From the NCBI GenBank assembly GCA_039908535.1, contig JAMOAW010000006.1:1842-65841 (forward strand): a DNA stretch of 64,000 nucleotides. The letters run 5' to 3'. The translations under genes and the position numbers were made by a program. Below are positions 28,690 through 63,776 of the stretch, one piece after another; the first letter of the stretch is position 1; every line of letters begins with the position of its first letter. The stretch is from Magnetococcus sp. DMHC-6 (GTDB taxonomy: Bacteria; Pseudomonadota; Magnetococcia; Magnetococcales; JADFZT01). Under the pieces are notes generated by a model, which searched no databases, was not told the DNA's origin, and saw only the letters and a list, made by a program, of their open reading frames with translations.

Positions 28690-28691
28690 CC

Positions 28692-30857: not shown

Positions 30858-31213
30858 GAATTTCAATTTGGGCTTTTTTAATCTCTCTAGCTATTTTTTG
30901 GGTTGGCTCTGGAATTTTTATTCCTCCAGCTTGGAGCCAGTCCACGACAAAAGAGATTGGGCCTGGTTTAAAAACGGGTAAACAAAACTATGCGCAATAT
31001 TGTGCCAGATGCCATGGTGCGACTGGACGCGGAAGCATGGCCGGTGTCCCAGATTTAAGTTGGCGCGGCGGAAAAGCCAATGGATTGGGTCAATTTGAAG
31101 AACACCTGCAAAACCGCATTTTGGCGGGTGGCAAGCTTTGTCCAGCCTATCAGGGTATTTTGACCAGTGATGAAGTTCGGGATGTTATACACTTTTTGAG
31201 AATGCTGCCATAA
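30854..31213 (+). CDS. Monoheme class I cytochrome c, secreted
   Basis: The TTG start overlaps the Sel1 stop. A signal peptide is present. There is a single CARCH motif, with a distal Met candidate in the C-terminal region. Confidence 0.7.
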   Translation: MRISIWAFLISLAIFWVGSGIFIPPAWSQSTTKEIGPGLKTGKQNYAQYCARCHGATGRGSMAGVPDLSWRGGKANGLGQFEEHLQNRILAGGKLCPAYQGILTSDEVRDVIHFLRMLP

Positions 31214-32340
31214 TGATCAAAAACTTGCTTCCTCTCCTTGTTCCGGCTTTGCTGGTGGCCTGTTCGGACCAAACGGATTCCACGGCCACCGCAGCACAGG
31301 AAAAACCACACGTTCAGCTCTCCACGACGAAAGCTTCTGCTCTGCCTATCTATCGTATGGTGGACTCCTTTGAGGTAGGTGAGAACGTTTATGTGCGTTC
31401 TCTCAAAGCCGAACCCAGTCAAAATGCCATGTGGGTGGGAACCAGTGTCGGCGTCTTGGAAGTGGACATGAAATCTCTTTTACCCAAGCAAACCTTTACG
31501 AGAGAGAGTGGTTTGGCCAACGAGTATGTCTTTGCCATAGGTATTGATCAAAAAGGTGCCAAATGGTTTGGCACCAATGCGGGGGGTATGTCACGCTACC
31601 AGGATGGTCAGTGGCGCACCTATTTTCCCATGCACGGCCTGGCCGATTATTGGGTCTACTCGTTTGCCAATCATCCCGATGGTGGTTTATGGATCGGCAC
31701 CTGGGCTGGGGCCAATCGTCTGGATTTAAAGACAGGCGAATTTACCACCTATGTCAAGGAGTTGATCAACGAATGGGTCTATGCCATTCAAATAGATTCC
31801 AAAGGTTACGTTTGGTTTGGAACCGAAGGAGGAATCTCCCTCTTTGATGGCCAAACATGGAAATCCTGGACCCATACCGATGGCTTAGGTGCCCTGAATG
31901 GCAATCAACTGCCGGTCAGCACCAATACTGGACTCGGCACCCGCAAACGACATGATTTGGGGGTTTTAAACGATGGTAGCCCGACCTATAATCCAAATTA
32001 TGTCTTTTCAATTGTGGTGGACCCAGAGGATATCATTTGGGCTGGCACATGGGGAGGGGGCGTGAGCCGTTTTGATGGAAAAAATTGGACCAGCTATACA
32101 ACCGCACAGGGATTACCCGGAAACATTATATACAGCATGATTCGCGATTCCCAAGGTGTTCTTTGGGTCGGGACCGAAAACGGCATCGGTCATTTTCGCG
32201 ATGGTCGATGGGAGGCCTTTGCAGACAATTATCGTTTGATTGGTGAAAATGTGTATACCTTGGCAGAGTCCTCCTCAGGAGAAATTTGGGCAGGAACGCG
32301 GGGCAAAGTGATTCGTATCAGTTCGGCGGCGACGCCGTAA
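31213..32340 (+). CDS. Lipoprotein with 7-bladed two-component-regulator-propeller (Reg_prop-like) domain
   Basis: The ATG overlaps the preceding TAA. The lipobox is LLVAC. There are seven repeats of the W(V/F/I)GT..GG(h)..(F/Y/L) type (MWVGTSVGV, KWFGTNAGGM, LWIGTWAGAN, VWFGTEGGIS, IWAGTWGGGV, LWVGTENGIG, IWAGTRGKV). Confidence 0.7.
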   Translation: MIKNLLPLLVPALLVACSDQTDSTATAAQEKPHVQLSTTKASALPIYRMVDSFEVGENVYVRSLKAEPSQNAMWVGTSVGVLEVDMKSLLPKQTFTRESGLANEYVFAIGIDQKGAKWFGTNAGGMSRYQDGQWRTYFPMHGLADYWVYSFANHPDGGLWIGTWAGANRLDLKTGEFTTYVKELINEWVYAIQIDSKGYVWFGTEGGISLFDGQTWKSWTHTDGLGALNGNQLPVSTNTGLGTRKRHDLGVLNDGSPTYNPNYVFSIVVDPEDIIWAGTWGGGVSRFDGKNWTSYTTAQGLPGNIIYSMIRDSQGVLWVGTENGIGHFRDGRWEAFADNYRLIGENVYTLAESSSGEIWAGTRGKVIRISSAATP

Positions 32341-32353
32341 AAAGGAGAGTGAT

Positions 32354-37038: not shown

Positions 37039-37839
37039 TTACAAATCATGGCAGGTCATGCACAGGCCAGAATCGTCGTTAGAACGCACCAACGCGCCAT
37101 GTTTTTCGCTATATCCTTGATGACAAGAGATGCACCCAACCTTACCATCGGGCAAGACGACTTCGGTTGGTATTTGGTTGAGCGGACGATAGCCACCAAA
37201 ACTGGTTGCCTTTTCATATTCAACACCAATGGGGTGGCTACCTGCGCCCTCCTCATGTTTGACCAAACCGGCACTCATTTTTATTTTGATGGCCGCAGTG
37301 TCATCGTCGTGGCAGCCGACACATTGCAAAGAGAAAGAATCCAGGTTATCCCATTTTTCCTCTGTGGTCTCACTTCGGGCATCCAGGTGACCAGAATTAA
37401 CCATAGAGGCCCCACGATCGGGCATTTGATCAAAAAATGTCTCCGTATGGCAGGAAAGACAAAAAGGGAGGCCTTTTGTCTGACTTCGCATTAAACCGGG
37501 GGTGTTGGCGTGAATGAGATGACAAGAAGAACAGGTCATGTCGCCTTTCCAGTCCAAAGGAAACTCTTTTGGCAGCTCATGACGAGGTGAAAAACCAGAG
37601 GGATGACTTAAACGAATGGCATCTGGATGACAAGTGCTGCACAATTTTTCTTGGCTAGCCAACAACATAGAGCTGTTTTTGCCGTCCACTTTTTCAGCCA
37701 AATGACAATCGGTGCAATCGGCATCAAGAAGGTGTCCTTTTTTAGTAGCCGAGCTGTTAAAAACGACACCAATCAAAATGGCCAACGCAACCGGTACAAT
37801 CATTCGGTATATGATGACCAAATGGCTTGATATCCACAC
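37039..37839 (-). CDS. Heptaheme c-type cytochrome, membrane-anchored or secreted
   Basis: Seven CxxCH motifs are present: CTDCH, CSTCH, CSSCH, CLSCH, CVGCH, CISCH and CMTCH. The N-terminal hydrophobic segment is MIVPVALAILIGVVF. Confidence 0.85.
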   Translation of the reverse strand: MWISSHLVIIYRMIVPVALAILIGVVFNSSATKKGHLLDADCTDCHLAEKVDGKNSSMLLASQEKLCSTCHPDAIRLSHPSGFSPRHELPKEFPLDWKGDMTCSSCHLIHANTPGLMRSQTKGLPFCLSCHTETFFDQMPDRGASMVNSGHLDARSETTEEKWDNLDSFSLQCVGCHDDDTAAIKIKMSAGLVKHEEGAGSHPIGVEYEKATSFGGYRPLNQIPTEVVLPDGKVGCISCHQGYSEKHGALVRSNDDSGLCMTCHDL

Positions 37840-52293: not shown

Positions 52294-52765
52294 AGAGAGA
52301 TCACCTTAAAGAAAAGAGTCTATGATCACCAGCACACAAAACAAAGCATGCTAAAATTTTATAAAGCATAAAACTTGTACCCAAAAAAGAGTCACTAAAA
52401 AATTAAAATTGATCTATGTCAATTTACAAAAATCACTCTATTCTTATCTACACTCCTCAAAACTATTAAAATCTTTACAGGATCACGTGAATGGAAAAAA
52501 CGATACAATAAGTTACATTAATCAATCATAAAAAACATATAAATATCAATCATTTAATAAATAAAAAATTACAATTATGTCTTGCCTATAAAAAAAAATC
52601 CTAAAAAAAAAATCAACGTAACGGCCAATTTTTCCTTTGACATTTTACATCAAAAAGGTCAAATTTTACATTATTAATAAATTACAAAAGAACGCATTGT
52701 TCACCAAATCTGTGTAAAATCTTTTTTTGTGGAAAAACCTATCAAAAATGAATGGAGGAAAAGGT

Positions 52766-53470
52766 ATGCGACACCAAGGTAAGAGAATGATATGGATGTT
52801 TATATCAGGATTGGCGTTATTCGGATATACAGGTTATGCGGTATCCCAAACCAATACGGCACCCGTAGATGAGAAAAAATCAGAATTCGTAGCATCCGTT
52901 GATCCAAAACAAATTCAACACGGAAAAATGCTCTACACTGAAAACTGCCAAGTATGCCACCAAGAAGAAGGAAAAGGCAAACCCGGTGTCGCCCCATCCC
53001 TCACCAATAAAGAACTCCTCACGGCGGCTTCCGACGAATTTCTTCTCTCGACCATTCGCGATGGTCGTGCTGAAACCCCCATGCCTGCTTGGGGAGAGAC
53101 GCTTAAACAAGAAGAAATACAAGATATTATCTCCTATTTGCGCAGCTATTCCAAAGGCCCAATGGTTGCCAATATGTTAGATAAAGATCATACGGCTATG
53201 GGTGACCCACGCCTTGGGAAACGGTGGTTTGCCCAAATCTGCGCCGGTTGCCACGGCCCCAACGGCGAAGGATATGAAGGTTCTGGTTCTGGTACCGCCA
53301 TTGGTAAATCTGGATTCCTCAACAAGGCAACCGATGGATTCATCCGTTATATCATCCAAAATGGCCGCTCCAATACCTCCATGCGCGGTTTCTCTGGTGC
53401 AGAGGGATTGGCTCATTTAAATGACCAGGAAATTGATGATATTATTTCATATCTGCGCATCCTCCAATAA
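52766..53470 (+). CDS. Diheme class I (c4-like) cytochrome c, secreted
   Basis: GGAGG precedes ATG 52766 and a signal peptide follows. There are two CxxCH motifs (CQVCH, CAGCH), each followed by a MP(A)W / MRGF Met-ligand region, indicating an internally duplicated domain. Confidence 0.8.
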   Translation: MRHQGKRMIWMFISGLALFGYTGYAVSQTNTAPVDEKKSEFVASVDPKQIQHGKMLYTENCQVCHQEEGKGKPGVAPSLTNKELLTAASDEFLLSTIRDGRAETPMPAWGETLKQEEIQDIISYLRSYSKGPMVANMLDKDHTAMGDPRLGKRWFAQICAGCHGPNGEGYEGSGSGTAIGKSGFLNKATDGFIRYIIQNGRSNTSMRGFSGAEGLAHLNDQEIDDIISYLRILQ

Positions 53471-53535
53471 CGGATCGTCGCGTCAAATACGGAAACCTAA
53501 GGTTATCTTTATATTCGTAAGGCAAGGAGAACATA

Positions 53536-56271
53536 ATGAAGCGTGATCGCATGAGTTTAGGCCGTCGGGCCTTTTTAAAAGGCAGTGGTGCCATGGTTGT
53601 TGCTGGTACAGCTGGCACAAGTCTTATGATGAATAACCCTGAATTGGTCGCCGCCGAAGCCCCGGCCACCAATGTCAAAGATGTCAAATCCTCAACCAGT
53701 AAAACCTCTTATGCCGCTTGCCCCTATTGTGGTGTTGGCTGCGGGACCATCATCCAGACCGAAAATGGCAAAATCACCTCCATGCAACCAGACCGGGATC
53801 ACCCGACGAACAAAGGTCTACAGTGCATCAAAGGACTCACCGCTGCCGAACCTATCTATGTGGACCGTCTCGAAGGGGATTGCTACGTCCGTAAAGATGT
53901 CTGGGCCGAATGGAAAAAACCCGGTCATGGCGATATTGAATATGTCTCGAAGACCAAAGGGGCCTTTGATGAGGAACTCTGGGATCGGGTTCCCTATGAA
54001 GATGCTGGCAATATGATCGCTGAAAAAGTCGCCCACTTTGCCAAAAAATATTCCGGCAACTCCATTGGCTTGTATGGTTCTGGTCAGTTAACCCTGGAAG
54101 GCCAATATCTGGAAAATCTATTTCTCAAGGGTGTTTTGGGTTCCAACACCATTGAGGCCAATGCCCGTATGTGCATGACCTCGGCGGTAACGGCCTATTT
54201 TGCCACTCTAGGTTCTGACACCCCCCCCTTGTGTTACGAAGACCTGGAACTGTGCGATATGATTATGCATTTCGGTCACAACCCACGGGAAGCCCATCCC
54301 ATTGTCTTCTGGCGGATTGCCGACCATAAAAAACGCATGGACATTCCCACTGTCGTCGTGGACCCAAGACGTACCGGTACGGTCCAAGGTTATTCTGACA
54401 TCAATGCCAAGAATACCGTTCATGTCCCGATTCTCAATGGTGACATCGCCTTTCTAAACGCCATTGCCCACGTTTTGCTCAAGGATCATCCCGATGTCAT
54501 TGATTGGGATTTCATGAAAGAGAACACCAAAGACTGGGAAGAGTACACCAAGGGAGTTGCTGAAAAATATAGCCCCGAGCAGGTTCAACAATTTATGGGC
54601 GGGGTCAATCACCCAGTTCCCCCTGAACTCATCCGTCACGTTGCAGGACTTTTTGCCGATGCCACTCGCAAACGGTTGGCACGTAAAAAAGCTGGTCAAC
54701 CCGAACAAGGCGGTGTCATTATTATGTGGGGTATTGGCTATAACCAACACATCCACGGTCAACACAACGTCATCTCCATTATCAACCTGCTCTCCATGAC
54801 AGGCAATCTGGCCAAACCCGGCTGCGGTCCTTTCTCAATGACTGGACAACCCAATGCCATGGGCGAACGCTTAACGGGTGGTCTGACGGGTCGTCTCCCC
54901 TTTAATATCGGCCTGGACAACGAAAAACATCTCTCCCATATGGCCGCAGCCTGGAATGTTCCAGAAGATAATCTCAAAACATCTGCCAAGGCGCAAAATC
55001 CCGGTTTTGCTGTAGGAATGATGGAGCGGGCCCAAAAAGGCGATGTCAAGGCCATGTTCCTAATCTACGCCACCCACATTGATCTACCCGATACCCATAA
55101 CTTGGTACGCCCGGCCTTGAACAAGGCCTTTGTCATCGCACAAGAGATCTATCGTCACGCCCCCAACAATCTCTATGCCGATGTCATTTTACCCGCTGCC
55201 ACTTGGGGTGAAGTGCAGGGAGTCTATATCAACTCTGAACGCCGACTCCATGTAATAGACAAAGCGGCCCAGGCTCCCAAAGGATGCAAACCAGATTTGG
55301 ACATGGTCATCGACAAAGGCCGCCATATTGCCACTCTTTTAGGCATGGATGGCGAAAAAATCTTCCCATGGAAACGGGATCCCGCAACGGGCGAATACAA
55401 CGCGGCAGAAATCTTTGAAGCCTTCATTCTCGCCTCTAAAGGGACCGATAGCGACCTGACAGGCATGTTGGAAGTACAGAAAAAAGATGGTCTGACCCCT
55501 TATGATCAAATCCGCAGCATTGACGGCAAAGACAGAGGGATGCAGTGGCCCGCTCCCAACTATGAAATTGCCAAAGCTGGAGGCACCAAACGCCGTTATA
55601 TGAATCAAGAAGGGTGGGCCGAAAGACCCTACGGAATGTTCCGCAAACCAGATGGCAAAATGCAGTTTAAACTGTGCCATATGGACTATTCCAATCGGGT
55701 GGAACTCACCAACAAGCTCATGGAGTTTGGGCGTAAAGATGGCGACAAAAACCTGTTCACCATTGACAACCTCGACCTCATGAAAGAGGCTCGTGACAAA
55801 GCCATGACCCCGGATCTACCCGATGAAGATTTTCGCAACCAGGCTTGGCATGCGGTCCCAAAAGACAAATATCCCATGTGGTTGGGCCTTGGCGTGGTCT
55901 ACGAGCATTTTCATACGGCCAAATCCAATCGTAGCCCCACCACCCGCCGTCTGGTTCCAGAACAGTATGTGGAAATGCATCCAGATGACGCCAAAGAGAT
56001 GGGCATCAAAGACGGCGATTTAATCAACCTGATCACCCGTCGTGGCCAATTCCAAGCCCGTGCCCAGGTGGGTACCAATAGCCTTGTCAAACCAGCCCGT
56101 AACAGCGTCCCCAGAGGCTATCTCTTCAGCCCCTGGAACCTCTCCGTGGCCGATAGTGCCGATCCCAAAAAGAATAAATGGCTGGTCAATGGGACGTCAA
56201 GCCGTATTTGGGATACCGTGTCGGGTCAGGTAGACTTTAAAAAGCTGGCCTGCCGGGTCGAAAAAGCGTAA
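53536..56271 (+). CDS. Tat-exported molybdopterin (Mo/W-bisPGD) oxidoreductase catalytic subunit, NapA-like but divergent
   Basis: The twin-arginine motif is LGRRAFLKGSG. The N-terminal 4Fe-4S motif is CPYCGVGCG-x27-C. The candidate Mo ligand Cys lies in ANARMCMTSAV, at the position of NapA ARHCMASAV. The C-terminal barrel domain carries TRRGQFQARAQV...FSPW. At 911 aa it is longer than the ~830 aa I recall for NapA. Confidence 0.8.
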   Translation: MKRDRMSLGRRAFLKGSGAMVVAGTAGTSLMMNNPELVAAEAPATNVKDVKSSTSKTSYAACPYCGVGCGTIIQTENGKITSMQPDRDHPTNKGLQCIKGLTAAEPIYVDRLEGDCYVRKDVWAEWKKPGHGDIEYVSKTKGAFDEELWDRVPYEDAGNMIAEKVAHFAKKYSGNSIGLYGSGQLTLEGQYLENLFLKGVLGSNTIEANARMCMTSAVTAYFATLGSDTPPLCYEDLELCDMIMHFGHNPREAHPIVFWRIADHKKRMDIPTVVVDPRRTGTVQGYSDINAKNTVHVPILNGDIAFLNAIAHVLLKDHPDVIDWDFMKENTKDWEEYTKGVAEKYSPEQVQQFMGGVNHPVPPELIRHVAGLFADATRKRLARKKAGQPEQGGVIIMWGIGYNQHIHGQHNVISIINLLSMTGNLAKPGCGPFSMTGQPNAMGERLTGGLTGRLPFNIGLDNEKHLSHMAAAWNVPEDNLKTSAKAQNPGFAVGMMERAQKGDVKAMFLIYATHIDLPDTHNLVRPALNKAFVIAQEIYRHAPNNLYADVILPAATWGEVQGVYINSERRLHVIDKAAQAPKGCKPDLDMVIDKGRHIATLLGMDGEKIFPWKRDPATGEYNAAEIFEAFILASKGTDSDLTGMLEVQKKDGLTPYDQIRSIDGKDRGMQWPAPNYEIAKAGGTKRRYMNQEGWAERPYGMFRKPDGKMQFKLCHMDYSNRVELTNKLMEFGRKDGDKNLFTIDNLDLMKEARDKAMTPDLPDEDFRNQAWHAVPKDKYPMWLGLGVVYEHFHTAKSNRSPTTRRLVPEQYVEMHPDDAKEMGIKDGDLINLITRRGQFQARAQVGTNSLVKPARNSVPRGYLFSPWNLSVADSADPKKNKWLVNGTSSRIWDTVSGQVDFKKLACRVEKA

Positions 56272-56298
56272 AGAGTATCTTATCACTCCAATTTAGTT

Positions 56299-56335
56299 TT
56301 ATCGGACTGGATCTTCTCAAGATCCAGTCCGATAA
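56299..56335 (+). promoter_or_regulatory. Perfect 17-bp stem / 3-nt loop intercistronic hairpin
   Basis: The sequence is TTATCGGACTGGATCTTctcAAGATCCAGTCCGATAA. It lies between the molybdoenzyme stop (56271) and the next start (56361), and no U-tract follows. Confidence 0.6.
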
Positions 56336-56360
56336 ACACAGTTAAAGGAGTTCGTTCTCT

Positions 56361-56954
56361 GTGTTTAGACGTAGCTTCTTAAAGGCGTTAGGTGTTCTTG
56401 TTATCACTGCTGCTGGGACCGCCTCTCCTCTCCACGCCAGACCAACGGCTGAATATCGTTTACGATTTTTACGTCCTCCAGGTGCGGATAAAGACGATCA
56501 ATTTCTCACCCAGTGTATTCGTTGCGGACAATGCGGCCAAATCTGCCCCAATCAAGCCATTCGTTATTTTAATCTGGAAAACGGGCTGGCCTCGTTGGAT
56601 ACACCGCATATCATTCCTCGAGAGCAAGCCTGTATTTTATGTATGAAGTGTGGCGAAATCTGCCCTTCGGGGGCCATCCCTAAAATTCCCAGGGAAGCAG
56701 AAGCCATTCTCACTCATGTCCGCATGGGCATGGCTGTAGTGGATCAAAATCTATGCCTCTCTTACCAAGGAAAAACGTGTGGTGTTTGTTACCGAGCCTG
56801 CCCTCTGCAAGGTGTCGCCCTTAAAGTAGGCATGTTAGAACAACCCTCCGTTACCAATCAATGTGTCGGTTGTGGATTATGTGAACGCTCCTGCATTCAA
56901 ATGCCACAGGCGATACGTATTTTTCCAATGCGGCAGGATGCCGCTACCGTCTGA
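56361..56954 (+). CDS. Tat-exported 4x[4Fe-4S] ferredoxin, NapG/MauM-like (copy 1)
   Basis: GTG start after AAGGAG. The Tat motif is RRSFLKALG. LRPPGA is present. There are four Cys clusters (CIRCGQCGQICP, CILCMKCGEICP, C..YQGKTCGVCYRACP, CVGCGLCERSC). Confidence 0.75.
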   Translation: MFRRSFLKALGVLVITAAGTASPLHARPTAEYRLRFLRPPGADKDDQFLTQCIRCGQCGQICPNQAIRYFNLENGLASLDTPHIIPREQACILCMKCGEICPSGAIPKIPREAEAILTHVRMGMAVVDQNLCLSYQGKTCGVCYRACPLQGVALKVGMLEQPSVTNQCVGCGLCERSCIQMPQAIRIFPMRQDAATV

Positions 56955-56976
56955 CCTTTTTAAAATAGGTTTTTTC

Positions 56977-57993
56977 ATGAACTTACATACCCCGCCGCCA
57001 GCTTTTTTCTTTTTAAAACATATCAATAAATTCCGTTGGCTCACGTTAACGCTGGTCTTTGGTCTGTTAATTGCTTTGCCCTACATCAGCTTGTATCAAA
57101 ATTTTCGGGCGGCGCATGCCTATGATTTTTTACCTCCAAGCGATGTCCGTATTTATGATGCGGTGGAATGGTTGACGGCTCCCTTTATTCACACCCATGA
57201 GGCCTCTGAACTCAATGCCATCAAGGGGAACACCTGGTCGGGAACTCTTTTCGGTCTAAAGTTGAGCGATCCCTTAACCTTAGTCAGCCAAATGGCCACC
57301 CAACTTCAGGTCTACTGGCCATTAATCCTCACAGTCTTGCTGCCAATCGGACTGACGGTGTTATTTGGTCGATTTTATTGTGGCTGGATCTGCCCGGCTA
57401 CTTTTCTTTATGAACTTTTCGATAAATTACGTCTTTTGCTGCTGCGCTCTGGCATACCTTTAGGTGCGGTACGGTTGGATTTACGCTTAAAATATTTGGT
57501 CTTGGCCATTGGAATCGCGTTATCGACCGCGCTTGGCACGGTGGTTTTTTCAGCCATTTATCCCCCGGCCATTATTGGACGAGAGTTACAATATTGGATT
57601 ACAGTTAACAGTATTGGGGCCGGGAGTACATTTTTTGCGGTGACCCTTTTGTTTGATCTTTTGGTTTCAAGACGTGGTTTTTGTCGTTATTTATGCCCAG
57701 GAGGTGCCCTTTACTCCCTTTTGGGACGCTATCGACTGTTGCGCATCCAGCGTTTACCGAACCATTGCAACGATTGCACCCTGTGCAACCGTGAATGCCA
57801 ATTTGGTCTCAAGCCCATGCGAGATGAATTTGGTCAGGAGTGCAACAACTGTACCGCCTGTATCGCGGTCTGTCCTACGCAAGCCTTGACTTTTAAAATC
57901 ACCCCCAAAGATCAATCCTACCAGGGCCATGGTCATCTTGGTCCCGCTTATAAACGGACACAAGTGACGATGGACAAGGAAAAGGTGAACTAA
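56977..57993 (+). CDS. NapH-like membrane quinol-dehydrogenase-type iron-sulfur protein
   Basis: Four predicted TM helices. Two CxxxCP motifs are present (FYCGWICPATF, FCRYLCPGGALY). There are two C-terminal 4Fe-4S motifs (CNDCTLCNRECQ, CNNCTACIAVCP). The start is placed at ATG 56977. Confidence 0.75.
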   Translation: MNLHTPPPAFFFLKHINKFRWLTLTLVFGLLIALPYISLYQNFRAAHAYDFLPPSDVRIYDAVEWLTAPFIHTHEASELNAIKGNTWSGTLFGLKLSDPLTLVSQMATQLQVYWPLILTVLLPIGLTVLFGRFYCGWICPATFLYELFDKLRLLLLRSGIPLGAVRLDLRLKYLVLAIGIALSTALGTVVFSAIYPPAIIGRELQYWITVNSIGAGSTFFAVTLLFDLLVSRRGFCRYLCPGGALYSLLGRYRLLRIQRLPNHCNDCTLCNRECQFGLKPMRDEFGQECNNCTACIAVCPTQALTFKITPKDQSYQGHGHLGPAYKRTQVTMDKEKVN

Positions 57994-58676
57994 TGCAACG
58001 GCGCACCTTTTTACAACAACTCATTTTTGCCAGTGCCGTTGGAGCCGGGGCCTCCACCCCTTTTGCCTTGGCGCGTCTAATGACCCCCAACGCCAACGCC
58101 GCCCCCCACACCCATTTACGTCCCCCAGGCGCCCTTCAAAATGAACAAGCTTTCATTGAGGCCTGCATCGGTTGTGGCTATTGTGGAGAGGCCTGTCCGG
58201 TTGGGGCCATTCGGTTTTATACCCGCGAGGGGGGAAATAAAATCAATACCCCTTATATCAACCCAGAGATCAAAGCCTGTACTTTGAGCGGTCACTGCAT
58301 GAAGGTGTGTCCCACCAACGCCTTGACCGAGACCCCCATCAAAGAGATCAAAATGGGTATTGCCAAAATTGATCGTTCGGGCTGTTATCCCTGGGTGGAT
58401 CGAGGCGTCTGTGGGGCCTGTGTAACGGGTTGTCCAGTTGGCAAGGAGGCCATCACCTTTGCCTTTGCCAATTTTTATCGACCCGTGGTTTTAAAAGGGT
58501 GCGTGGGGTGTGGGGTCTGCGTGGAAGTATGTCCTCATCCCAGTTTACCCATTAAAATTGTCAGTCACTTGTTGGCGGTCAATGCACCAGAAAGCATTGT
58601 TCCAGAACCCTCCTTGCCCCCAGAGATAATCGGCATTGTCGAAAAAAAGGAGACGCCTGGCCTCATGCCATTTTAA
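57993..58676 (+). CDS. Tat-exported polyferredoxin, NapG-like (copy 2)
   Basis: The start overlaps the preceding stop (TAATG). The Tat motif is QRRTFLQQL. LRPPGA is present. The Cys clusters are CIGCGYCGEACP, C..SGHCMKVCP, CGACVTGCP and CVGCGVCVEVCP. Confidence 0.7.
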   Translation: MQRRTFLQQLIFASAVGAGASTPFALARLMTPNANAAPHTHLRPPGALQNEQAFIEACIGCGYCGEACPVGAIRFYTREGGNKINTPYINPEIKACTLSGHCMKVCPTNALTETPIKEIKMGIAKIDRSGCYPWVDRGVCGACVTGCPVGKEAITFAFANFYRPVVLKGCVGCGVCVEVCPHPSLPIKIVSHLLAVNAPESIVPEPSLPPEIIGIVEKKETPGLMPF

Positions 58677-58726
58677 TCTTTCTAAAAAAGAGTTATTTTA
58701 ACTTTTACCCTCTTTTATTCAGGAGT

Positions 58727-58949
58727 GTAACCGTTCAGCGAAGTAAAATTTTACATTAATTAAAACTCAATGATTTATTGCTTTGGCGTAACATATATTA
58801 ATAAAAAAAAGGGGTCTGGGGAATTGCCCCCAGGGTTTTGCTTTTGACTTTGCTTTTGACTTCGGTTTTGCTTTCTTCAAATAGCAGGGGGGTTGGGGGA
58901 TGCAATCCCCCAAGGTCTTGTTTTTGATTTTTTTTATCTAAACGGTTAC
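58727..58949 (+). mobile_element. Family-2 MITE-like element (with 50-bp internal extra segment) flanked by perfect 8-bp direct repeat TCAGGAGT
   Basis: The left TIR is GTAACCGTTCA (58727-58737) and the right TIR is AACGGTTAC (58941-58949). The flanking TCAGGAGT lies at 58719-58726 and 58950-58957. The core is >85% similar by eye to 44840-45018. A second gtaac at 58788 marks the point where the similarity resumes. Confidence 0.7.
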
Positions 58950-58968
58950 TCAGGAGTTTGGTCCATTC

Positions 58969-59568
58969 ATGGCGCGCACTCTTTTTATATTACTCTTTAT
59001 CGTCATGCTCCAACTTCTTGTTGGTCTCTCCCCCGCCCTTGCCCACCACATATTGGGTCGTCCTGCGTATCACTTTGGAGAAGATTCTTCTACCCCTCCG
59101 TCCATTTCATTGGAGACGCAAATTGGCCAGTATGTGGTCAATGTCATGGTCTTTCCCGCCTTTCCAAAACCTGGAGAGGAGAGTCGGATCAAATTTTACG
59201 CCATCCATTTAAAAACGAAAGAGACGCTCAGCGTTCCGATCCAATTTCTCATTCGGGACGATGTATGGTTTGGTGATAAACGTTTGGAAAGTCTGGGAGA
59301 GCAACGCCCCATTGACGGCATTTATCGTCAATCTGTTATTTTTAAAGAAGAGGCCAATTATATTCTTACCGCCCAATTTGAGGCCCTCAACGAACCCTAT
59401 ACGATTGATATTCCGTTGACCATTGGCAATCCCACCTCTTCCTGGCCGCTTTTTATTGCCGCTGGGGTGGTGGGGGGGATGCTTCTTTTACTCGTATGGC
59501 ACAAAAAACGACGCCGCCGCCACCAACCTCTTGCCTCTATGGACACCGATTTAACGGAACCTAGCTGA
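58969..59568 (+). CDS. Periplasmic beta-rich protein with C-terminal TM anchor; predicted mature N-terminus His-His
   Basis: The signal peptide ends ...LSPALA|HHILGRP. About 150 aa of alternating beta-like segments follow. The TM helix is LFIAAGVVGGMLLLLVW, followed by KKRRRRH. No family was recognised by eye. Confidence 0.5.
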   Translation: MARTLFILLFIVMLQLLVGLSPALAHHILGRPAYHFGEDSSTPPSISLETQIGQYVVNVMVFPAFPKPGEESRIKFYAIHLKTKETLSVPIQFLIRDDVWFGDKRLESLGEQRPIDGIYRQSVIFKEEANYILTAQFEALNEPYTIDIPLTIGNPTSSWPLFIAAGVVGGMLLLLVWHKKRRRRHQPLASMDTDLTEPS

Positions 59569-61130
59569 TGCCAGGGGAACCCTCCATATTGGATCTCTCT
59601 TTTTGTCCTCCCCCTGATGGTTCTCTGACCATGATTCACCGAGGACTCCCCTCAGGATGGGCTTTTATTGTCGTTGTCGGCGTATTTGTTTTATGTACGC
59701 TGACCCTCATGCAAAAAAAATCCACTTCCCCAAAAAACCATTTTTTTTATCTACTCCGCATTCCCATCTTCGGTCCCCTCGTAGCGAGGTTAACCGCCTC
59801 TCCCTGGCCACTGGTCGGATTAAGAGGGATAACCGTTTTTTTCTTGCTTCTAGTGATTGCCACGGGGTTATGGGGAACCCCTTTTCCAGAACGCAATTTT
59901 GCCACCACCTTGACTTGGACCTTTTGGTGGACGTTGGTAATTATTTCGGTTTTTTTTATCGGAACCGCTTGGTGCGCCATCTGCCCGTGGGATGCCATTG
60001 GGGTATGGTTGACGCGGCGTAAACTCTGGGGGCGAGGGGCGGAAGAGGATGGCTTTAACCTGCGCCTGCCGCAATTTTTGCGCTCGGTCTGGCCAGCTCT
60101 TCTGATGTTAACCGGTTTAACTTGGCTAGAGTTGGGATTTGGGGTGACGGTCCATCCCGCCTCCACGGCCATTTTGGCTTTGATCATGGTGGTGTTGACC
60201 ATGGTTTCGTTGGCTCTTTTTGAACGCAAATCTTTCTGCCGCTATCTCTGTCCGGTGGGGCGCACCCTTGGATTTTACGCCCAACTCGCCCCTTTAGAGT
60301 TGCGTCCCCTGGATCAGGAACGTTGCCAAATCTGTACCACCTTAGAGTGTTACCACGGTTCTCAAACAATTGAACCCTGCCCGACCTTTTTAACCATGGG
60401 TCGCTTTGGGCAAAACACCTATTGCCTCTCCTGCGGATCTTGTGTCTTGAGTTGTCCCCACGCCAACATCTCCTGGCGTTTGCGCCCCATGGCTGCTGAA
60501 GCCAAAAGCGGTGCCCGCCCCCACCCAGATGAGGCTTGGTTTATGGTGGTTCTCCTCGCCCTCACGACCTTTCATGGCATCACCATGATGCCTATGTGGG
60601 AGGATTTTTTACGCGCTACCGCCCCCTACCTCAAAGATTCCGGCAAACTGTTGCTCTCGTTCAGTTTGGGAATGTCTATTATTATTGGCGGGACGGTAGC
60701 CCTTTACCTGTTGACGGTGGCCTGGAGCCGTTGGTGGAGTGGCGTTGCTTGGCTGCGTCTATTCACTGGATTTTCCTTCGCCACTTTGCCAGTAGCCTTT
60801 GCCTACCATTTGGCCCATAATCTTAACCATCTGCTGCGCGAAGGGAGTGGATTTACCGAAGTTCTTCTAAATCCCTTTGGAACAAACGTTCTCCCCATGA
60901 CCCCTCTGCTGCGCCATATGCGCATGAAAGAGATGTGGATACCCGAATCTTGGGTGTTTGCCCTGCAGGCGATGCTCCTATTGTGGGGATTTTGGATGGC
61001 GACAGAGATCGTTCAACACCGATTGGAAGGAATCCAAGGCTGGAAGCGTCTGCCCATGCTCATTTTTCTGGCTGGGTTTACCGGATTAAACCTCTGGATA
61101 GTGATGCAAGATATGGTCATGAGATTATAA
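59568..61130 (+). CDS. Polytopic membrane iron-sulfur protein, paralogue of 34691-37018 (NapH/CcoG-like)
   Basis: The start overlaps the preceding stop (TGATG). The motifs are WCAICPWD, FCRYLCPVGR, CQICTTLEC and CLSCGSCVLSCP. There are about 10 TM segments. Confidence 0.7.
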   Translation: MPGEPSILDLSFCPPPDGSLTMIHRGLPSGWAFIVVVGVFVLCTLTLMQKKSTSPKNHFFYLLRIPIFGPLVARLTASPWPLVGLRGITVFFLLLVIATGLWGTPFPERNFATTLTWTFWWTLVIISVFFIGTAWCAICPWDAIGVWLTRRKLWGRGAEEDGFNLRLPQFLRSVWPALLMLTGLTWLELGFGVTVHPASTAILALIMVVLTMVSLALFERKSFCRYLCPVGRTLGFYAQLAPLELRPLDQERCQICTTLECYHGSQTIEPCPTFLTMGRFGQNTYCLSCGSCVLSCPHANISWRLRPMAAEAKSGARPHPDEAWFMVVLLALTTFHGITMMPMWEDFLRATAPYLKDSGKLLLSFSLGMSIIIGGTVALYLLTVAWSRWWSGVAWLRLFTGFSFATLPVAFAYHLAHNLNHLLREGSGFTEVLLNPFGTNVLPMTPLLRHMRMKEMWIPESWVFALQAMLLLWGFWMATEIVQHRLEGIQGWKRLPMLIFLAGFTGLNLWIVMQDMVMRL

Positions 61131-61735
61131 TGGAACGCCGCGCACTCTTTCGATTGGGTCTCAAAAACACCTTAAACGCTCTTGTCCAGGGTGTAGAAGA
61201 GCGCACGGATAGGCAAACCGCTCGTTGGTTTCGTCCACCGTTTGCTATCCGTGAACTCTATTTTCAACTATCTTGTACCCGTTGCGATAAATGTATACAA
61301 GCCTGTCCCTATGGGGTTTTATTTGCTTTACCCTTTAAATATGGTCCACAGGTGGCGGGAACGCCTGTTCTGGATCTTTTGCAAAAAGGGTGTCGCCTAT
61401 GTCGTGATTGGCCATGTGTAGCGGCATGTGAACCCCAATCTTTACGCCTTCCTCCCCAAACAGAAGGGGTTCCCCCCCCCCTGCCCCACCTCTCCAAGGC
61501 CAAAATCGACCCCTTGCGTTGTCTGCCTTTTATGGGACCGGAATGCGGGGCCTGCCAAGGAGTTTGTCCAGTTCCAGGAGCTCTTGCTTGGCAAGGTGCC
61601 CGGCCAACGGTTGTAGAAAGTGTGTGTGTGGGATGTGGGATGTGCCGCGAGGCCTGTGTGACTGCCCCCAAATCAATTCATTTAGTGCCCATCATTTTAG
61701 AAGCAAGCTCGAACACAGACAATCATGAAATTTAA
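61130..61735 (+). CDS. NapF-like cytoplasmic/peripheral polyferredoxin
   Basis: The ATG at 61130 overlaps the preceding TAA. The sequence is RPPFAIRELYFQLSCTRCDKCIQACP. Further Cys clusters are present (CRLCRDWPCVAAC, CGACQGVCP, CVGCGMCREAC). Confidence 0.6.
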   Translation: MERRALFRLGLKNTLNALVQGVEERTDRQTARWFRPPFAIRELYFQLSCTRCDKCIQACPYGVLFALPFKYGPQVAGTPVLDLLQKGCRLCRDWPCVAACEPQSLRLPPQTEGVPPPLPHLSKAKIDPLRCLPFMGPECGACQGVCPVPGALAWQGARPTVVESVCVGCGMCREACVTAPKSIHLVPIILEASSNTDNHEI

Positions 61736-63776
61736 TTTTTTTTTCTTATTAATAAGTTGCTTTATGGCAATCCAACCGATCATGGGGAATGAAAACCGCT
61801 TAGGCAACAGCCAAAGCCCCTATCTGCGCCAGCATGCCAGCGAGGCCATCCATTGGCAACCGTGGGGAACCGCCGCCCTAAAGCAGGCCAAAGAGGAAGA
61901 TAAACTCATTCTTCTAACCATCGGCTATTTAGCCTGTCATTGGTGCCGGGTCATGTCTGAAGAGACCTTCGCGGATGCCGAGGTCATCACCCGCCTCAAT
62001 GACCATTTTATCCCCATTCTAGTGGATCGCGAGGAGCGCGCCGATCTGGACACCCACTATCTAGCGGTGGCACAACGCATGATGGGACGCTCAGGTTGGC
62101 CGCAATTCATTTTTTTAACCCCAGATCTATTGCCTCTTTTTGCCGGAAACTATTTTCCTCCAGAGGACAAAAACGGCCAGACTGGATTCAGACATATTTT
62201 ACGTGATCTTGCCAAAGAGTGGCAGGAAAACCGTGCCGCACTTTTGAGCAACGAAGAGAGAACTAAAGCCCAACTACAATCTATGTGGCAACTCTCCTCT
62301 CTCCCTGGTGGCGAGGGCGACCCCCGCCAACGGGCGGCGCAACGTTTACGAGCTATTTTAACCAACTCTGCCGACAATGCCCCCCGATTTCCCCGTCCAA
62401 CCGCCTTATCTTTTCTTTTACGACATGGGGTACGCACCCATGATCAAAAATTGTTAGACGAGGTCCACGCCCTTTTAGAAGCCATGGCTGCAGGTGGTAT
62501 TCGCGATATTTTAGGAGGGTTGTTTCATCGTTATAGCGTGGATGCGGCTTGGCAAAAACCCCATTATGAAATCATGTTGTTGGATAACGCGCTTCTAGCG
62601 CGGGTCTACCTAGAGGCCTATCAGGTTTTTAGCACTTCTGGCGATGCCCTAGTTGCCCAAGAAATTTTTGAAGGTATTTTTAAACAGTTGCAGGTGTCGC
62701 AAAATAATTTTGGCTCTTCTTTAGCCGCCGATAGCCCAGACAGCCAAGGCAAGATGCGCGAAGGGACCTATTATCAATGGACACCCAGCGCAATAAAAAA
62801 TCTCCTTGGAGATGCCGGGTTGCAAAAAATCCAAAAATGGCTACACATAGAGGATGGCCCCTTACGCTGGAAAGGGCCAAGAATTCCCTGGAACGATCCG
62901 ATTTTAAAAGAGCTGACCCCTTTGCGCCAAGCCCGCGCCCAACGCTCTGCTCCGCAACGCGACGATAAAATCATCACCTCTCAAAACGCACTGCTGGCCA
63001 GTTCTTTGGCCTTAGGGGCGCGGGTGTTGGCAAAGCCGGAATATCTTCAAGTCGCCAAAGAGATTTTACTCCCATTGACCACCTATTTTCGCAAACACCA
63101 GACGCTTCCCCATATGCGCCTGGAGCACACCTGGGGAGAGACTGGTTTTTTGGACGCTTACGCCTTTACCATTCAGGCGTTGCTAGATATTTATGAAAGC
63201 GATTTTGATCTTTCTCATCTGGAATTGGCGCGCGAAATGGCCGAAGTGATGCAAAACCGTTTCCGCTCCAAAAGTGGCCCCTGGTGGAAATTTACCGCCG
63301 ATGAATCTCAAGAATTGATATTTCTAGAAGATCGAGAAGGTCTGCCCACTGCCAACAACGTGGCATGGAGCACTCTCGCCCGTCTATCCAAATGGCAAGC
63401 CCAAGAGGAAAAACGTCAACAACAGCTCTACCCCGCGCTCCCAGAGGCGATTCAACACTCAAGCGAACTTTTGCGGGCAGTGGATTATCTTGACCCAGAG
63501 GCGATCCAAGTGATTGTAGTTGGTTCCCCCTTTGATCCCATGACCCAGCTATTAACCCACGAAGTAAGCCGCCGCCTGTTACCAGGAGCCGTTTGGGCCG
63601 TTCTCGACCCCACCTCTGCGCCCCCTTCTCCCCACTGGCCCGCGTTAATCCCCCACCCCCTACAAAAAGGCCAACCCACCGCCTACCTCTGCCACCAAAA
63701 CCTCTGCCAAACCCCTGTTACCACAATAGAAGCCTTGAGGGAACAACTCGCGGCTATTGGCTATAAAGCTCCGTAG
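61725..63776 (+). CDS. DUF255 thioredoxin-domain protein (YyaL-like, thioredoxin + (alpha/alpha)6 barrel) with N-terminal signal/anchor
   Basis: The sequence NRLGNSQSPYLRQHASEAIHWQPWG...LLTIGYLACHWCRVMSEETF carries the CHWC motif. The N-terminal hydrophobic segment is FFFLLISCFMAIQPIMG. It overlaps the previous gene by 11 nt. Confidence 0.8.
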   Translation: MKFNFFFLLISCFMAIQPIMGNENRLGNSQSPYLRQHASEAIHWQPWGTAALKQAKEEDKLILLTIGYLACHWCRVMSEETFADAEVITRLNDHFIPILVDREERADLDTHYLAVAQRMMGRSGWPQFIFLTPDLLPLFAGNYFPPEDKNGQTGFRHILRDLAKEWQENRAALLSNEERTKAQLQSMWQLSSLPGGEGDPRQRAAQRLRAILTNSADNAPRFPRPTALSFLLRHGVRTHDQKLLDEVHALLEAMAAGGIRDILGGLFHRYSVDAAWQKPHYEIMLLDNALLARVYLEAYQVFSTSGDALVAQEIFEGIFKQLQVSQNNFGSSLAADSPDSQGKMREGTYYQWTPSAIKNLLGDAGLQKIQKWLHIEDGPLRWKGPRIPWNDPILKELTPLRQARAQRSAPQRDDKIITSQNALLASSLALGARVLAKPEYLQVAKEILLPLTTYFRKHQTLPHMRLEHTWGETGFLDAYAFTIQALLDIYESDFDLSHLELAREMAEVMQNRFRSKSGPWWKFTADESQELIFLEDREGLPTANNVAWSTLARLSKWQAQEEKRQQQLYPALPEAIQHSSELLRAVDYLDPEAIQVIVVGSPFDPMTQLLTHEVSRRLLPGAVWAVLDPTSAPPSPHWPALIPHPLQKGQPTAYLCHQNLCQTPVTTIEALREQLAAIGYKAP

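What the first reader, a model, noticed from the sequence alone, without database searches (positions are those of the whole stretch)
52766..63776. Atypical periplasmic molybdoenzyme respiratory cluster: c4-type cytochrome + NapA-like + NapG + NapH + second NapG + anchored periplasmic protein + polyferredoxin membrane protein + NapF-like + exported DUF255
The catalytic subunit has a Tat signal, the CxxCxxxC...C 4Fe-4S motif and a Cys at the NapA Mo-ligand position. However, it is 911 aa, which is longer than the NapA size I recall. No NapB (the small diheme partner) or NapD chaperone is visible. Instead a c4-like diheme cytochrome precedes the catalytic gene. The electron-transfer module is duplicated and expanded: two Tat-dependent NapG-like ferredoxins, one NapH-like protein and one ~10-TM CcoG/NapH-like protein. 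Most junctions are overlapping stop/start codons (57993, 59568, 61130, 61725). The substrate (nitrate versus another oxyanion or a metal/metalloid) and the direction of electron flow cannot be deduced from the sequence alone.
Basis: partly seen in the sequence, partly recalled or inferred. Interest (0 to 1): 0.7.

Follow-up and report, generated by a model that had tools for sequence, protein, structure and literature searches.

The report
Divergent Nap-like periplasmic molybdoenzyme operon
A Magnetococcales genome carries a complete operon for a periplasmic molybdenum enzyme that looks like a nitrate reductase but belongs to a separate, uncharacterised lineage with a different cytochrome partner and two extra proteins, and the same operon is found in many sulfur- and iron-oxidising and low-oxygen marine bacteria.

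Summary

The 911-aa Tat-exported Mo-bisPGD protein is not canonical NapA. It scores 333 bits against a cut-off of 904 and is 31-33% identical to NapA. It forms its own clade (NJ bootstrap 100), outside NapA (100), Nas and Fdh. It keeps the nitrate-reductase core (four FeS Cys, Lys99, Cys213-Met214, Asp228, Arg445). Four pocket or channel residues differ.

The operon recurs in at least 80 species-level genomes of Alpha-, Beta- and Gammaproteobacteria and Magnetococcales at about 70% identity, with fixed gene order. In 51 of 70 relatives a NapC/NirT tetrahaem gene precedes it; the window has none.

NapB is replaced by a conserved His/Met dihaem (c4/CcoP-like) cytochrome. No NapD was found. An FNR-type box lies upstream in 24 of 75 loci, about ten times chance.

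The 199-aa protein has an invariant N-terminal His-His, a beta-sandwich and a C-terminal membrane anchor. The 520-aa polyferredoxin has no solved structural relative.

Most likely this is a low-oxygen-induced respiratory nitrate (oxyanion) reductase. It is a new variant of the Nap kind. The substrate is untested.

The parts
52409..52422 (+). FNR/CRP-type box TTGATCTATGTCAA, 344 nt upstream of the first gene, in a 470-nt AT-rich intergenic region
   Evidence: Near-identical boxes lie upstream of the orthologous gene in Thiohalobacter and Sulfuriflexus. A box with at most one mismatch is present in 24 of 75 loci, against 0.031 expected per 480 nt.
52766..53470 (+). Sec-exported dihaem class I cytochrome c (c4/CcoP-like), the presumed partner of the catalytic subunit in place of NapB
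   Evidence: Pfam Cytochrome_CBB3 and Cytochrom_C, two stretches. The best PDB match is CcoP 8smr_G, E 6.7e-23. Two CxxCH motifs and both distal Met motifs are conserved in 79 orthologues. The gene is present in 76 of 78 loci.
53536..56271 (+). Tat-exported Mo-bisPGD catalytic subunit, 911 aa, of a distinct clade beside NapA and Nas
56296..56338 (+). Stable stem-loop (15-18 bp) between the catalytic gene and napG1, with no U-tail
   Evidence: RNA fold gives -34 kcal/mol, z -7.3. A comparably stable structure (z below -3) occupies the same gap in 27 of 63 related loci. A role in mRNA stability or attenuation is inferred.
56361..56954 (+). NapG-like Tat-exported 4x[4Fe-4S] ferredoxin (copy 1)
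   Evidence: NCBIfam NapG 133 bits (cut-off 269) and MauM/NapG 107 bits. It has an RRSFLK motif. Present in 53 of 55 loci.
56977..57993 (+). NapH-like membrane ferredoxin with two CX3CP motifs and two FeS motifs
   Evidence: NCBIfam NapH 130 bits (cut-off 234) and Pfam Fer4_5. Present in 53 of 55 loci.
57993..58676 (+). Second NapG-like Tat-exported ferredoxin
   Evidence: NCBIfam NapG 97.5 bits. Present in 46 of 55 loci.
58969..59568 (+). p199: signal peptide, invariant mature N-terminus HHILGRPAY, eight-strand beta-sandwich and a C-terminal membrane helix. It is a putative metal-binding periplasmic subunit.
   Evidence: No Pfam or NCBIfam family. Alignment. AF2 pLDDT 82. Weak fold matches to the Cu/Fe-binding proteins CrdA, FetP and P19. 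Present in 52 of 55 loci, also where the next gene is missing.
59568..61130 (+). mem520: polytopic NapH-related polyferredoxin with two CX3CP motifs, a CxxCxxCxxxCP motif, and invariant MxHPGLP and YHLAHNLNH motifs
   Evidence: Pfam Fer4_5 and weak NapH/NosR hits. 27% local identity to the window's NapH. AF2 pTM 0.85 with no PDB fold match, best E 0.05. Some homologues carry His/Met-rich N-terminal repeats. Present in 41 of 55 loci.
61130..61735 (+). NapF/NapG-family polyferredoxin with a vestigial RR motif and no hydrophobic signal region, so presumably cytoplasmic and NapF-like
   Evidence: NCBIfam NapG 92 bits and NapF 59 bits. Present in 52 of 55 loci.
61725..63776 (+). Exported DUF255/Thioredox_DsbH protein (CHWC motif plus a helical barrel); an optional member of the cluster
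   Evidence: Pfam 3.2e-60. PDB 7tkv_A E 6.5e-76. It directly follows the NapF-like gene in 14 of 55 loci.

Best explanation
The window encodes a complete, divergent Nap-type periplasmic respiratory oxyanion reductase. Its most likely substrate is nitrate.

Shown by the data:
- The catalytic subunit is Tat-exported.
- It holds one [4Fe-4S] cluster and a Cys-ligated Mo-bisPGD site.
- Its core residues are those shared by NapA and Nas.

Inferred:
- The catalytic subunit pairs in the periplasm with the co-transcribed His/Met dihaem cytochrome, which takes the place of bis-His NapB.
- Electrons come from the quinol pool through NapH and the two Tat-exported NapG ferredoxins. In most relatives they also come through a NapC/NirT tetrahaem cytochrome, which this genome lacks. 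The high-potential dihaem may additionally accept electrons from the periplasmic cytochrome c pool.
- The NapF-like protein serves cytoplasmic maturation.
- p199 and mem520 form a metal-binding or redox accessory module of unknown role.
- Expression is switched on at low oxygen by an FNR-family regulator.
For: - The nitrate-reductase core is invariant in 120 family sequences (alignments). It comprises four FeS Cys, Lys99, Cys213-Met214, Asp228 and Arg445. NapA and Nas share it; Fdh does not (Cys-His, no Arg).
- Every partner is a Nap homologue: NapG twice, NapH and NapF, plus NapC/NirT directly upstream in 51 of 70 relatives. NapC/NirT scores Pfam PF03264 at 2.5e-49 and TIGR02161 at 266 bits.
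- Gene order is fixed across Alpha-, Beta- and Gammaproteobacteria and Magnetococcales.
- FNR-type boxes occur in 24 of 75 loci against about 2.3 expected by chance. A Crp/FNR gene and moaA lie beside the Sulfuriflexus locus.
- The hosts are interface and low-oxygen lithotrophs: Thioploca, Ca. Parabeggiatoa, Thiohalobacter, Gallionellaceae and OMZ Arenicellales.
Against: - No activity, expression or genetic data exist for any member.
- All subunits score below the curated Nap cut-offs.
- Four pocket or channel positions differ from NapA and are fixed in the family: Ala to Thr215, Glu156 to Thr229, Met308 to Ile400, and Asp/Glu355 to Phe/Leu446. This could mean another substrate.
- NapD, which canonical NapA needs, was not found.
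- Cultured Magnetococcales already carry a canonical napFDAGHBC (PMC6783814), so a second nitrate reductase would need its own rationale.
- The cluster does not sit in denitrification islands. The only recurrent neighbours are napC, moaA and DUF255.
Confidence: 0.6

Rival explanations
1. The architecture and electron flow are the same, but the physiological acceptor is another oxyanion, such as chlorate or perchlorate, selenate, tellurate or iodate. The re-lined substrate channel would select for it.
For: Two acidic NapA channel residues are replaced by Thr and Phe/Leu, and Met308 is replaced by Ile. All three are fixed in 120 sequences. The family is a separate clade with 100% bootstrap. NapA enzymes are known to be promiscuous toward chlorate and perchlorate (PMC12769810). 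Some hosts probably also carry canonical Nap or Nar (PMC6783814; PMC11172852).
Against: The residues that define nitrate reductases (Cys-Met, Asp, Arg) are intact. No chlorite dismutase, selenium-handling or other substrate-specific gene recurs next to the cluster. Nitrate is the abundant acceptor in the habitats of these hosts.
Confidence: 0.2
2. The enzyme works in the oxidative direction. It would be a periplasmic dehydrogenase for a reduced inorganic compound that hands electrons to the high-potential dihaem cytochrome and on to a cbb3 oxidase, or via NapC/NapGH to quinone.
For: The partner cytochrome is of the His/Met c4/CcoP type that usually feeds oxidases. The hosts are sulfur and iron oxidisers, and one locus abuts dsrAB-like genes. 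From established knowledge, NapC/NirT-family proteins can run as quinone reductases, for example cM552 of ammonia oxidisers.
Against: The active site matches reductases of the Nap/Nas type, not Fdh. All accessory genes are known from reductive Nap systems. Nitrite oxidation at +420 mV could not reduce quinone. FNR-type control fits an anaerobic acceptor pathway.
Confidence: 0.08
3. The region holds two functionally independent units that merely travel together. Unit one is a five-gene Mo-enzyme module (cytochrome, catalytic subunit, NapG, NapH, NapG). Unit two is a metal-handling module (p199, mem520, NapF-like, DUF255) that resembles CcoG-type or FtrD/P19-type metal reductase systems.
For: One genome has only the first five genes (L004/L087). 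A repeat element with terminator-like hairpins separates the halves in the window. mem520 has a paralogue elsewhere in the window next to multihaem cytochromes. Its homologues carry His/Met-rich repeats. p199 weakly resembles Cu/Fe-binding sandwiches.
Against: p199 and the NapF-like gene follow the Mo module in 52 of 55 loci across four proteobacterial classes, mostly with gaps of under 50 nt or overlaps. The most divergent p199 relative still sits next to a NapH-like gene. NapF is a Nap maturation factor.
Confidence: 0.1

Closest known systems
Enterobacterial Nap (napFDAGHBC; E. coli or Salmonella NapA, PDB 2nya)
   Same: Both have a Tat-exported Mo-bisPGD subunit with one [4Fe-4S] cluster, a Cys-Met Mo-ligand motif, and the conserved Lys and Arg. 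Both have NapF, NapG and NapH homologues. Most relatives of the window also have NapC.
   Different: The window protein is 33% identical to Salmonella NapA. It scores 333 bits against a cut-off of 904. It lies outside the NapA clade. There is no NapB and no NapD. It has a second NapG, p199 and mem520. Four pocket or channel residues differ.
Campylobacterota Nap (napAGHBFLD; C. jejuni NapA 924 aa, PDB 9pxt)
   Same: As in this window, there is no NapC, so NapGH is the only quinol-oxidising module. The catalytic subunit is long (over 900 aa). NapF is present.
   Different: The extra length comes from different insertions. C. jejuni NapA belongs to the NapA clade and pairs with NapB, NapL and NapD. 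The match to the window protein is only E 3e-62.
Monomeric NapA systems (napCMADGH; D. desulfuricans NapA, PDB 2nap/2jio)
   Same: D. desulfuricans NapA is the best PDB sequence match (E 4e-72). NapB is absent there too, and another c-type cytochrome (NapM) is encoded instead. NapC, NapG and NapH are present.
   Different: The D. desulfuricans enzyme is 723 aa and is placed inside the NapA family in the published NapA tree (PMC12769810). NapM is a tetrahaem, not a c4-type dihaem. NapD is present.
Assimilatory nitrate reductases (NasA/NarB)
   Same: They share the same core residues, and the spacing of the TGQPNAMGxR motif is the Nas one. Public pipelines name family members 'ferredoxin-nitrate reductase' or 'assimilatory nitrate reductase'.
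   Different: Nas is cytoplasmic and has no Tat signal. The window protein has a Tat signal and periplasmic partners. It forms a separate clade.
Cytochrome c4 and the CcoP subunit of cbb3 oxidase
   Same: Both have two class I His/Met haem domains in one chain. CcoP is the best PDB match.
   Different: The window protein is a soluble exported protein encoded immediately upstream of a molybdoenzyme gene. It is not part of an oxidase operon.
NapH/NosR/CcoG/FtrD membrane polyferredoxins, and the P19/FetP/CrdA periplasmic metal-binding sandwiches
   Same: mem520 has the CX3CP and FeS motifs of this group. p199 has a beta-sandwich fold and an N-terminal His pair. Homologues of mem520 have His/Met-rich tails. 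The pairing recalls FtrD with P19, or CcoG with its copper substrate.
   Different: No curated family matches p199. mem520 gives only weak NapH/NosR hits and no CcoG hit. It has no structural match in the PDB. Metal binding is untested.

Membership tests
Canonical periplasmic nitrate reductase NapA (NCBIfam NF010055 / TIGR01706) | Whole-protein score above the curated equivalog cut-off | tested here: not met
   333 bits against 904, and 301 against 930.
Canonical periplasmic nitrate reductase NapA (NCBIfam NF010055 / TIGR01706) | Placement inside the NapA clade | tested here: not met
   In the NJ tree of 128 sequences, the NapA clade excludes the family in 100 of 100 bootstraps, and the family plus its sisters is recovered in 98 of 100. 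The tree is distance-based only; no ML tree was run.
Canonical periplasmic nitrate reductase NapA (NCBIfam NF010055 / TIGR01706) | Tat signal, N-terminal [4Fe-4S] motif and the Lys between FeS and pterin | tested here: met
   SLGRRAFLKG; C62, C65, C69, C97 and K99. All are invariant in 120 sequences apart from one Ser at C62.
Canonical periplasmic nitrate reductase NapA (NCBIfam NF010055 / TIGR01706) | Mo-ligand Cys followed by Met, plus the active-site Asp and Arg (Dd C140, M141, D155, R354) | tested here: met
   C213, M214, D228 and R445 are invariant.
Canonical periplasmic nitrate reductase NapA (NCBIfam NF010055 / TIGR01706) | NapA substrate-channel residues Glu156, Met308 and Asp/Glu355 (Dd numbering) | tested here: not met
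   Thr229, Ile400 and Phe/Leu446 occupy these positions and are fixed in the family.
Canonical periplasmic nitrate reductase NapA (NCBIfam NF010055 / TIGR01706) | Nitrate reductase activity | not testable with these tools
   Needs an enzyme assay.
Nap operon (the four architectures listed in PMC13223375) | The napD chaperone gene is in the operon | tested here: not met
   tblastn with Salmonella NapD gave no hit better than E 0.18 in the window or 83 loci. There is no unassigned coding space in the cluster. Sensitivity is limited.
Nap operon (the four architectures listed in PMC13223375) | NapB bis-His dihaem partner | tested here: not met
   No NapB-like hit. A His/Met class I dihaem is encoded instead.
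Nap operon (the four architectures listed in PMC13223375) | NapG, NapH, NapF and NapC electron-transfer and maturation genes | tested here: inconclusive
   NapG, NapH, NapF and NapC models are the best hits, but all score below the equivalog or subfamily cut-offs. NapC is absent from the window itself.
Assimilatory nitrate reductase (NasA/NasC/NarB) | Cytoplasmic location (no Tat signal) and a score above the cut-off | tested here: not met
   A Tat signal is present. Scores are 263 bits against 1000 and 228 against 1100.
Formate dehydrogenase alpha (FdhF/FdnG) | A (Se)Cys-His dipeptide at the metal ligand | tested here: not met
   The dipeptide is Cys-Met. All 22 Fdh sequences in the set have Cys-His. 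The score is 329 bits against 666.
Cytochrome c4-type dihaem | Two class I domains, each with CxxCH and a distal Met | tested here: met
   Both CxxCH motifs and both Met motifs (GR..T.M.P and GRSNT.M) are conserved at 90% or more across 79 orthologues. Haem ligation and redox potentials were not measured.
CcoG-type cupric reductase (for mem520) | Match to the CcoG/FixG model (TIGR02745) | tested here: not met
   mem520 gave no CcoG hit, only weak NapH and NosR hits.

The most novel reading that the evidence does not exclude
This is an unrecognised fifth architecture of periplasmic nitrate-type reductase, here called 'c4-Nap'. Its catalytic subunit would be wired to a high-potential His/Met dihaem cytochrome rather than to bis-His NapB. 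Lithotrophs could then pass electrons from the periplasmic cytochrome c pool (Sox, Cyc2, bc1) straight to nitrate or a related oxyanion, as well as from quinol. The system would depend on a new membrane-anchored His-His protein and on a polyferredoxin with no solved structural relative. Because pipelines call it nasA or narB, it would be a hidden dissimilatory nitrate sink in surveys of oxygen minimum zones, hydrothermal vents and sediments.
Probability: 0.3. Interest if true: 0.75.

Novelty: new variant of a known kind. Interest (0 to 1): 0.62.

Why it matters
Periplasmic nitrate reductases are a textbook part of the nitrogen cycle. Recent reviews and NapA phylogenies recognise four operon types, all of which include NapD, and three of the four include NapB (PMC13223375, PMC12769810).

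This lineage is conserved at about 70% identity across four proteobacterial classes. It is present in giant sulfur bacteria, Gallionellaceae, Thiohalobacter, OMZ Arenicellales and magnetotactic cocci. It has a different cytochrome partner, no recognisable NapD and two unknown subunits.

Automated annotation labels it variously as assimilatory or ferredoxin-nitrate reductase, 'selenocysteine-containing dehydrogenase' or a generic molybdopterin oxidoreductase. Gene-based nitrogen budgets may therefore misplace it.

If the dihaem does connect it to the cytochrome c pool, that would change how sulfur or iron oxidation is thought to couple to nitrate in these organisms. p199 and mem520 are also new targets for structural and metal-binding work.

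Tried and rejected
- **Canonical NapA, Nas and Fdh membership.** All rejected by curated scores, motifs and tree.
- **A named close relative.** None exists among 72,556 plasmids; all hits are below 30% identity. No solved structure matches better than E 4e-72.
- **NapB or NapD elsewhere in the window or in relatives.** Nothing was found.
- **Literature.** Seven full-text searches and six papers found no description of this operon type. Ca. Siderophilus has ordinary napABCD. Beggiatoaceae and Magnetococcales papers list only napAB or napDAGHBC.
- **The p199 fold.** Only weak matches (E about 1e-3) to generic Ig-like sandwiches. The copper and iron proteins among them are a lead, not an assignment.
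- **Is p199 fused to the window's mem520 paralogue?** No detectable similarity to that N-terminal domain, nor to the gene upstream of the YQC-3 paralogue.
- **The mem520 fold.** No PDB match.
- **Recurrent denitrification neighbours.** None appeared in a clustering of 2,311 flank ORFs.
- **The terminator-like hairpins before p199.** They were first taken as an operon boundary, but they belong to a dispersed repeat family.

Full report
**1. What is in the sequence**

Nine co-directional ORFs fill 52766-63776. A 470-nt AT-rich intergenic region precedes them and separates them from a divergent RND/HlyD efflux pair. Four junctions overlap (57993, 59568, 61130, 61725).

Pfam and NCBIfam give the following:

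- a two-domain cytochrome c;
- a 911-aa protein with Molybdop_Fe4S4, Molybdopterin and Molydop_binding domains;
- a NapG-like ferredoxin;
- a NapH-like membrane ferredoxin;
- a second NapG-like ferredoxin;
- a 199-aa protein with no family (p199);
- a 520-aa Fer4_5 membrane protein (mem520);
- a NapF/NapG-like ferredoxin;
- a DUF255/Thioredox_DsbH protein.

The closest relatives of several of these proteins come from Magnetococcales MAGs: 86% identity for the catalytic subunit and 62% for mem520. The window is therefore from a magnetotactic coccus relative.

**2. The catalytic subunit is not NapA, Nas or Fdh**

It scores 333 bits on the NapA equivalog model (cut-off 904) and 329 bits on Fdh-alpha (cut-off 666). 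Over aligned columns it is 31-33% identical to Salmonella and C. sphaeroides NapA, 31-32% to two Nas proteins and 29% to FdhF.

An exhaustive profile search of 1.8 billion representatives shows a sharp drop in score. One 51% relative scores 940 bits, one 50% relative 740 bits and one 42% relative 475 bits. Below that lies the broad Nap/Nas/Fdh continuum at about 300 bits. None of the three nearest outsiders reaches any curated cut-off either.

In an NJ tree of 128 sequences, with references taken from annotated plasmids, the results were:

| Grouping | Bootstrap support (of 100) |
|---|---|
| The family | 100 |
| Family plus the 51% sister | 100 |
| Family plus all three sisters | 98 |
| NapA clade, excluding the family | 100 |

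**3. The active site is of the nitrate-reductase kind, but re-lined**

I compared 120 family members with 13 NapA, 65 Nas-like and 22 Fdh sequences (alignments).

- The four FeS cysteines, Lys99, Cys213-Met214, Asp228 and Arg445 are conserved in the family (one sequence has Ser at the first FeS Cys). NapA and Nas share them. Fdh instead has Cys-His and lacks the Arg.
- Four positions differ from NapA and are fixed in the family. Thr215 replaces Ala. Thr229 replaces Glu156 (D. desulfuricans numbering). Ile400 replaces Met308. Phe/Leu446 replaces Asp/Glu355.
- Arg354, Asp155, Glu156 and Asp355 are the charged channel residues named in the 2026 Nap review (PMC13223375). Two of the four have therefore lost their negative charge.
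- The extra length comes from eight insertions of 8-23 residues, mostly between residues 640 and 780.

**4. It is a family, with a fixed operon**

A scan of one genome per species found 120 matching places. The 80 that were kept share 68-86% identity. They come from these groups:

- Magnetococcales;
- Gammaproteobacteria: Thiohalobacter, Thiogranum, Thioploca, Ca. Parabeggiatoa, Acidiferrobacteraceae, Arenicellales from oxygen minimum zones, and Motiliproteus;
- Betaproteobacteria: Gallionellaceae and Rhodocyclaceae;
- Alphaproteobacteria: Rhodospirillaceae, Hyphomicrobiaceae, Magnetovibrio and Ruegeria sp. HKCCD8929.

I mapped the nine window proteins onto 83 loci:

| Gene | Loci with the gene / loci that could be scored |
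|---|---|
| Cytochrome c | 76 / 78 |
| NapG1 | 53 / 55 |
| NapH | 53 / 55 |
| NapG2 | 46 / 55 |
| p199 | 52 / 55 |
| mem520 | 41 / 55 |
| NapF-like | 52 / 55 |
| DUF255 | 14 / 55 |

Clustering the flank ORFs revealed one more member. A NapC/NirT tetrahaem gene lies directly upstream in 51 of 70 loci. It scores Pfam PF03264 at 2.5e-49 and TIGR02161 at 266 bits against a cut-off of 310.

The window and the other Magnetococcales lack napC. There, NapGH is the only visible link to quinol, as in Campylobacterota. Minimal versions also exist: napC, cytochrome and catalytic gene in Ca. Parabeggiatoa, and the catalytic gene alone on a Thioploca contig.

**5. The partner cytochrome**

Its best solved relatives are CcoP subunits of cbb3 oxidases. 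Both CxxCH motifs and both distal Met motifs are conserved in 79 orthologues. It is therefore a His/Met class I dihaem of the c4 type, unlike bis-His NapB.

No NapB or NapD was detected in the window or in any related locus. The review lists only napEDABC, napDAGHB, napCMADGH and napAGHBFLD as operon types. The latest NapA phylogeny has no such clade.

**6. Regulation and transcript structure**

A TTGAT-N4-(A/G)TCAA box lies at 52409-52422. Near-identical boxes precede the operon in Thiohalobacter and Sulfuriflexus. Overall, 24 of 75 loci have such a box within 450 nt upstream. The expectation is 0.031 per 480 nt, about 2.3 loci.

A stable stem-loop follows the catalytic gene (-34 kcal/mol, z -7.3). 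A similar structure (z below -3) recurs in 27 of 63 loci. This fits higher expression of the structural genes than of the accessory genes, but that reading is an inference.

The 293-nt gap before p199 is an insertion of a dispersed hairpin repeat, with 16 copies in the window. In other genomes this gap is a few tens of bases.

**7. The two unknown proteins**

*p199.* It has a signal peptide, an invariant mature N-terminus HHILGRPAY and a C-terminal membrane helix. AF2 (pLDDT 82) gives an eight-strand sandwich. Foldseek hits are weak. The better-fitting ones include the periplasmic Cu/Fe-binding proteins CrdA, FetP and P19. p199 stays in the operon when mem520 is absent. Its most distant relative still follows a NapH-like gene.

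*mem520.* It shares the CX3CP and FeS region with NapH. It also has invariant MxHPGLP and YHLAHNLNH motifs. AF2 folds it confidently (pTM 0.85), but nothing in the PDB matches it. Some homologues carry His/Met-rich N-terminal repeats.

A metal-related role is a reasonable lead for both proteins. It is not shown.

**8. Interpretation**

The best-supported reading is a low-oxygen-induced, Nap-type periplasmic oxyanion reductase, most probably for nitrate. Its electron entry would be through NapGH here, and through NapC as well in most relatives. A c4-type dihaem would be the immediate donor.

What is shown:

- periplasmic localisation signals;
- cofactor motifs;
- homology of every partner to a Nap component;
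- conserved synteny;
- enrichment of the FNR-type box.

What is inferred:

- the complex between the catalytic subunit and the cytochrome;
- the direction of electron flow;
- the substrate;
- the roles of p199, mem520 and DUF255.

Three rivals remain: another oxyanion, an oxidative direction, and two independent modules. They are weighed in their own sections of this report.

**9. Verdict**

It is a new variant of a known kind. It is widespread, uncharacterised, inconsistently annotated, and directly testable in at least two cultured strains.

Noticed in passing
window 58815-58927; also 5358/5451, 7538/7632, 21508/21603, 25475, 34518, 38082/38180, 41148/41226, 44885/44977: A dispersed intergenic repeat: a GC-rich hairpin followed by GGTnTTGnTTTTGA. 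It usually occurs as a pair about 90 nt apart. There are 16 copies in 64 kb against 0.03 expected. One pair is inserted between napG2 and p199.
   Followed up: partly
window 34691-37018 (+), with 37039-37839 (-), 30854-31213 (+), 31213-34102 (+) and 26389-30104 (+): A 775-aa paralogue of mem520 (41% identity over all 520 residues) has an extra exported N-terminal domain of about 240 aa. It sits beside a multihaem cytochrome c, a monohaem cytochrome c, two Reg_prop beta-propeller proteins and a PAS kinase with a sigma-54 response regulator. A similar arrangement occurs in Magnetococcus sp. YQC-3 (L093).
   Followed up: partly
P0351, P0381, P0306 (homologues of window 59568-61130); L094 8001-9749: Some mem520 homologues have long N-terminal His/Met-rich repeats (HDHxxMP..., AHHPAS x6). 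Such repeats are typical of metal-binding tails. One of these homologues lies inside a complete Nap-like operon.
   Followed up: partly
L094 12913-17265: In one related genome, genes resembling dsrA, dsrB and dsrL (NIR_SIR, NIR_SIR_ferr, and a GltD-like gene) follow the operon directly. This links the operon physically to a sulfur-oxidation locus.
   Followed up: no
L092 579-2705 and 17916-20291: One relative has a second, 708-aa Mo-bisPGD gene 7 kb upstream. Its DUF255 protein is fused to a DsbD_N domain, which hints at a periplasmic thiol-reductant role for the DUF255 member.
   Followed up: no
P0172, P0220, P0266, P0212: Four Tat-signal proteins of about 940 aa group with the sister clades on a long branch but lack the Mo-ligand Cys (Ser or Arg instead). 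They may be non-catalytic or differently ligated relatives.
   Followed up: no
L091 1-7038: Next to one operon lie an FTR1 permease with a Fer4_5 polyferredoxin, and a set of FMN_bind, PepSY_TM and ApbE genes. These are other periplasm-facing metal or electron modules.
   Followed up: no
L002 1664-6820: The Sulfuriflexus locus is flanked by an Rrf2 regulator, a truncated globin, a flavin reductase, moaA, a Crp/FNR regulator and a small DsbH protein. This is a nitrogen-oxide or low-oxygen-flavoured neighbourhood.
   Followed up: no
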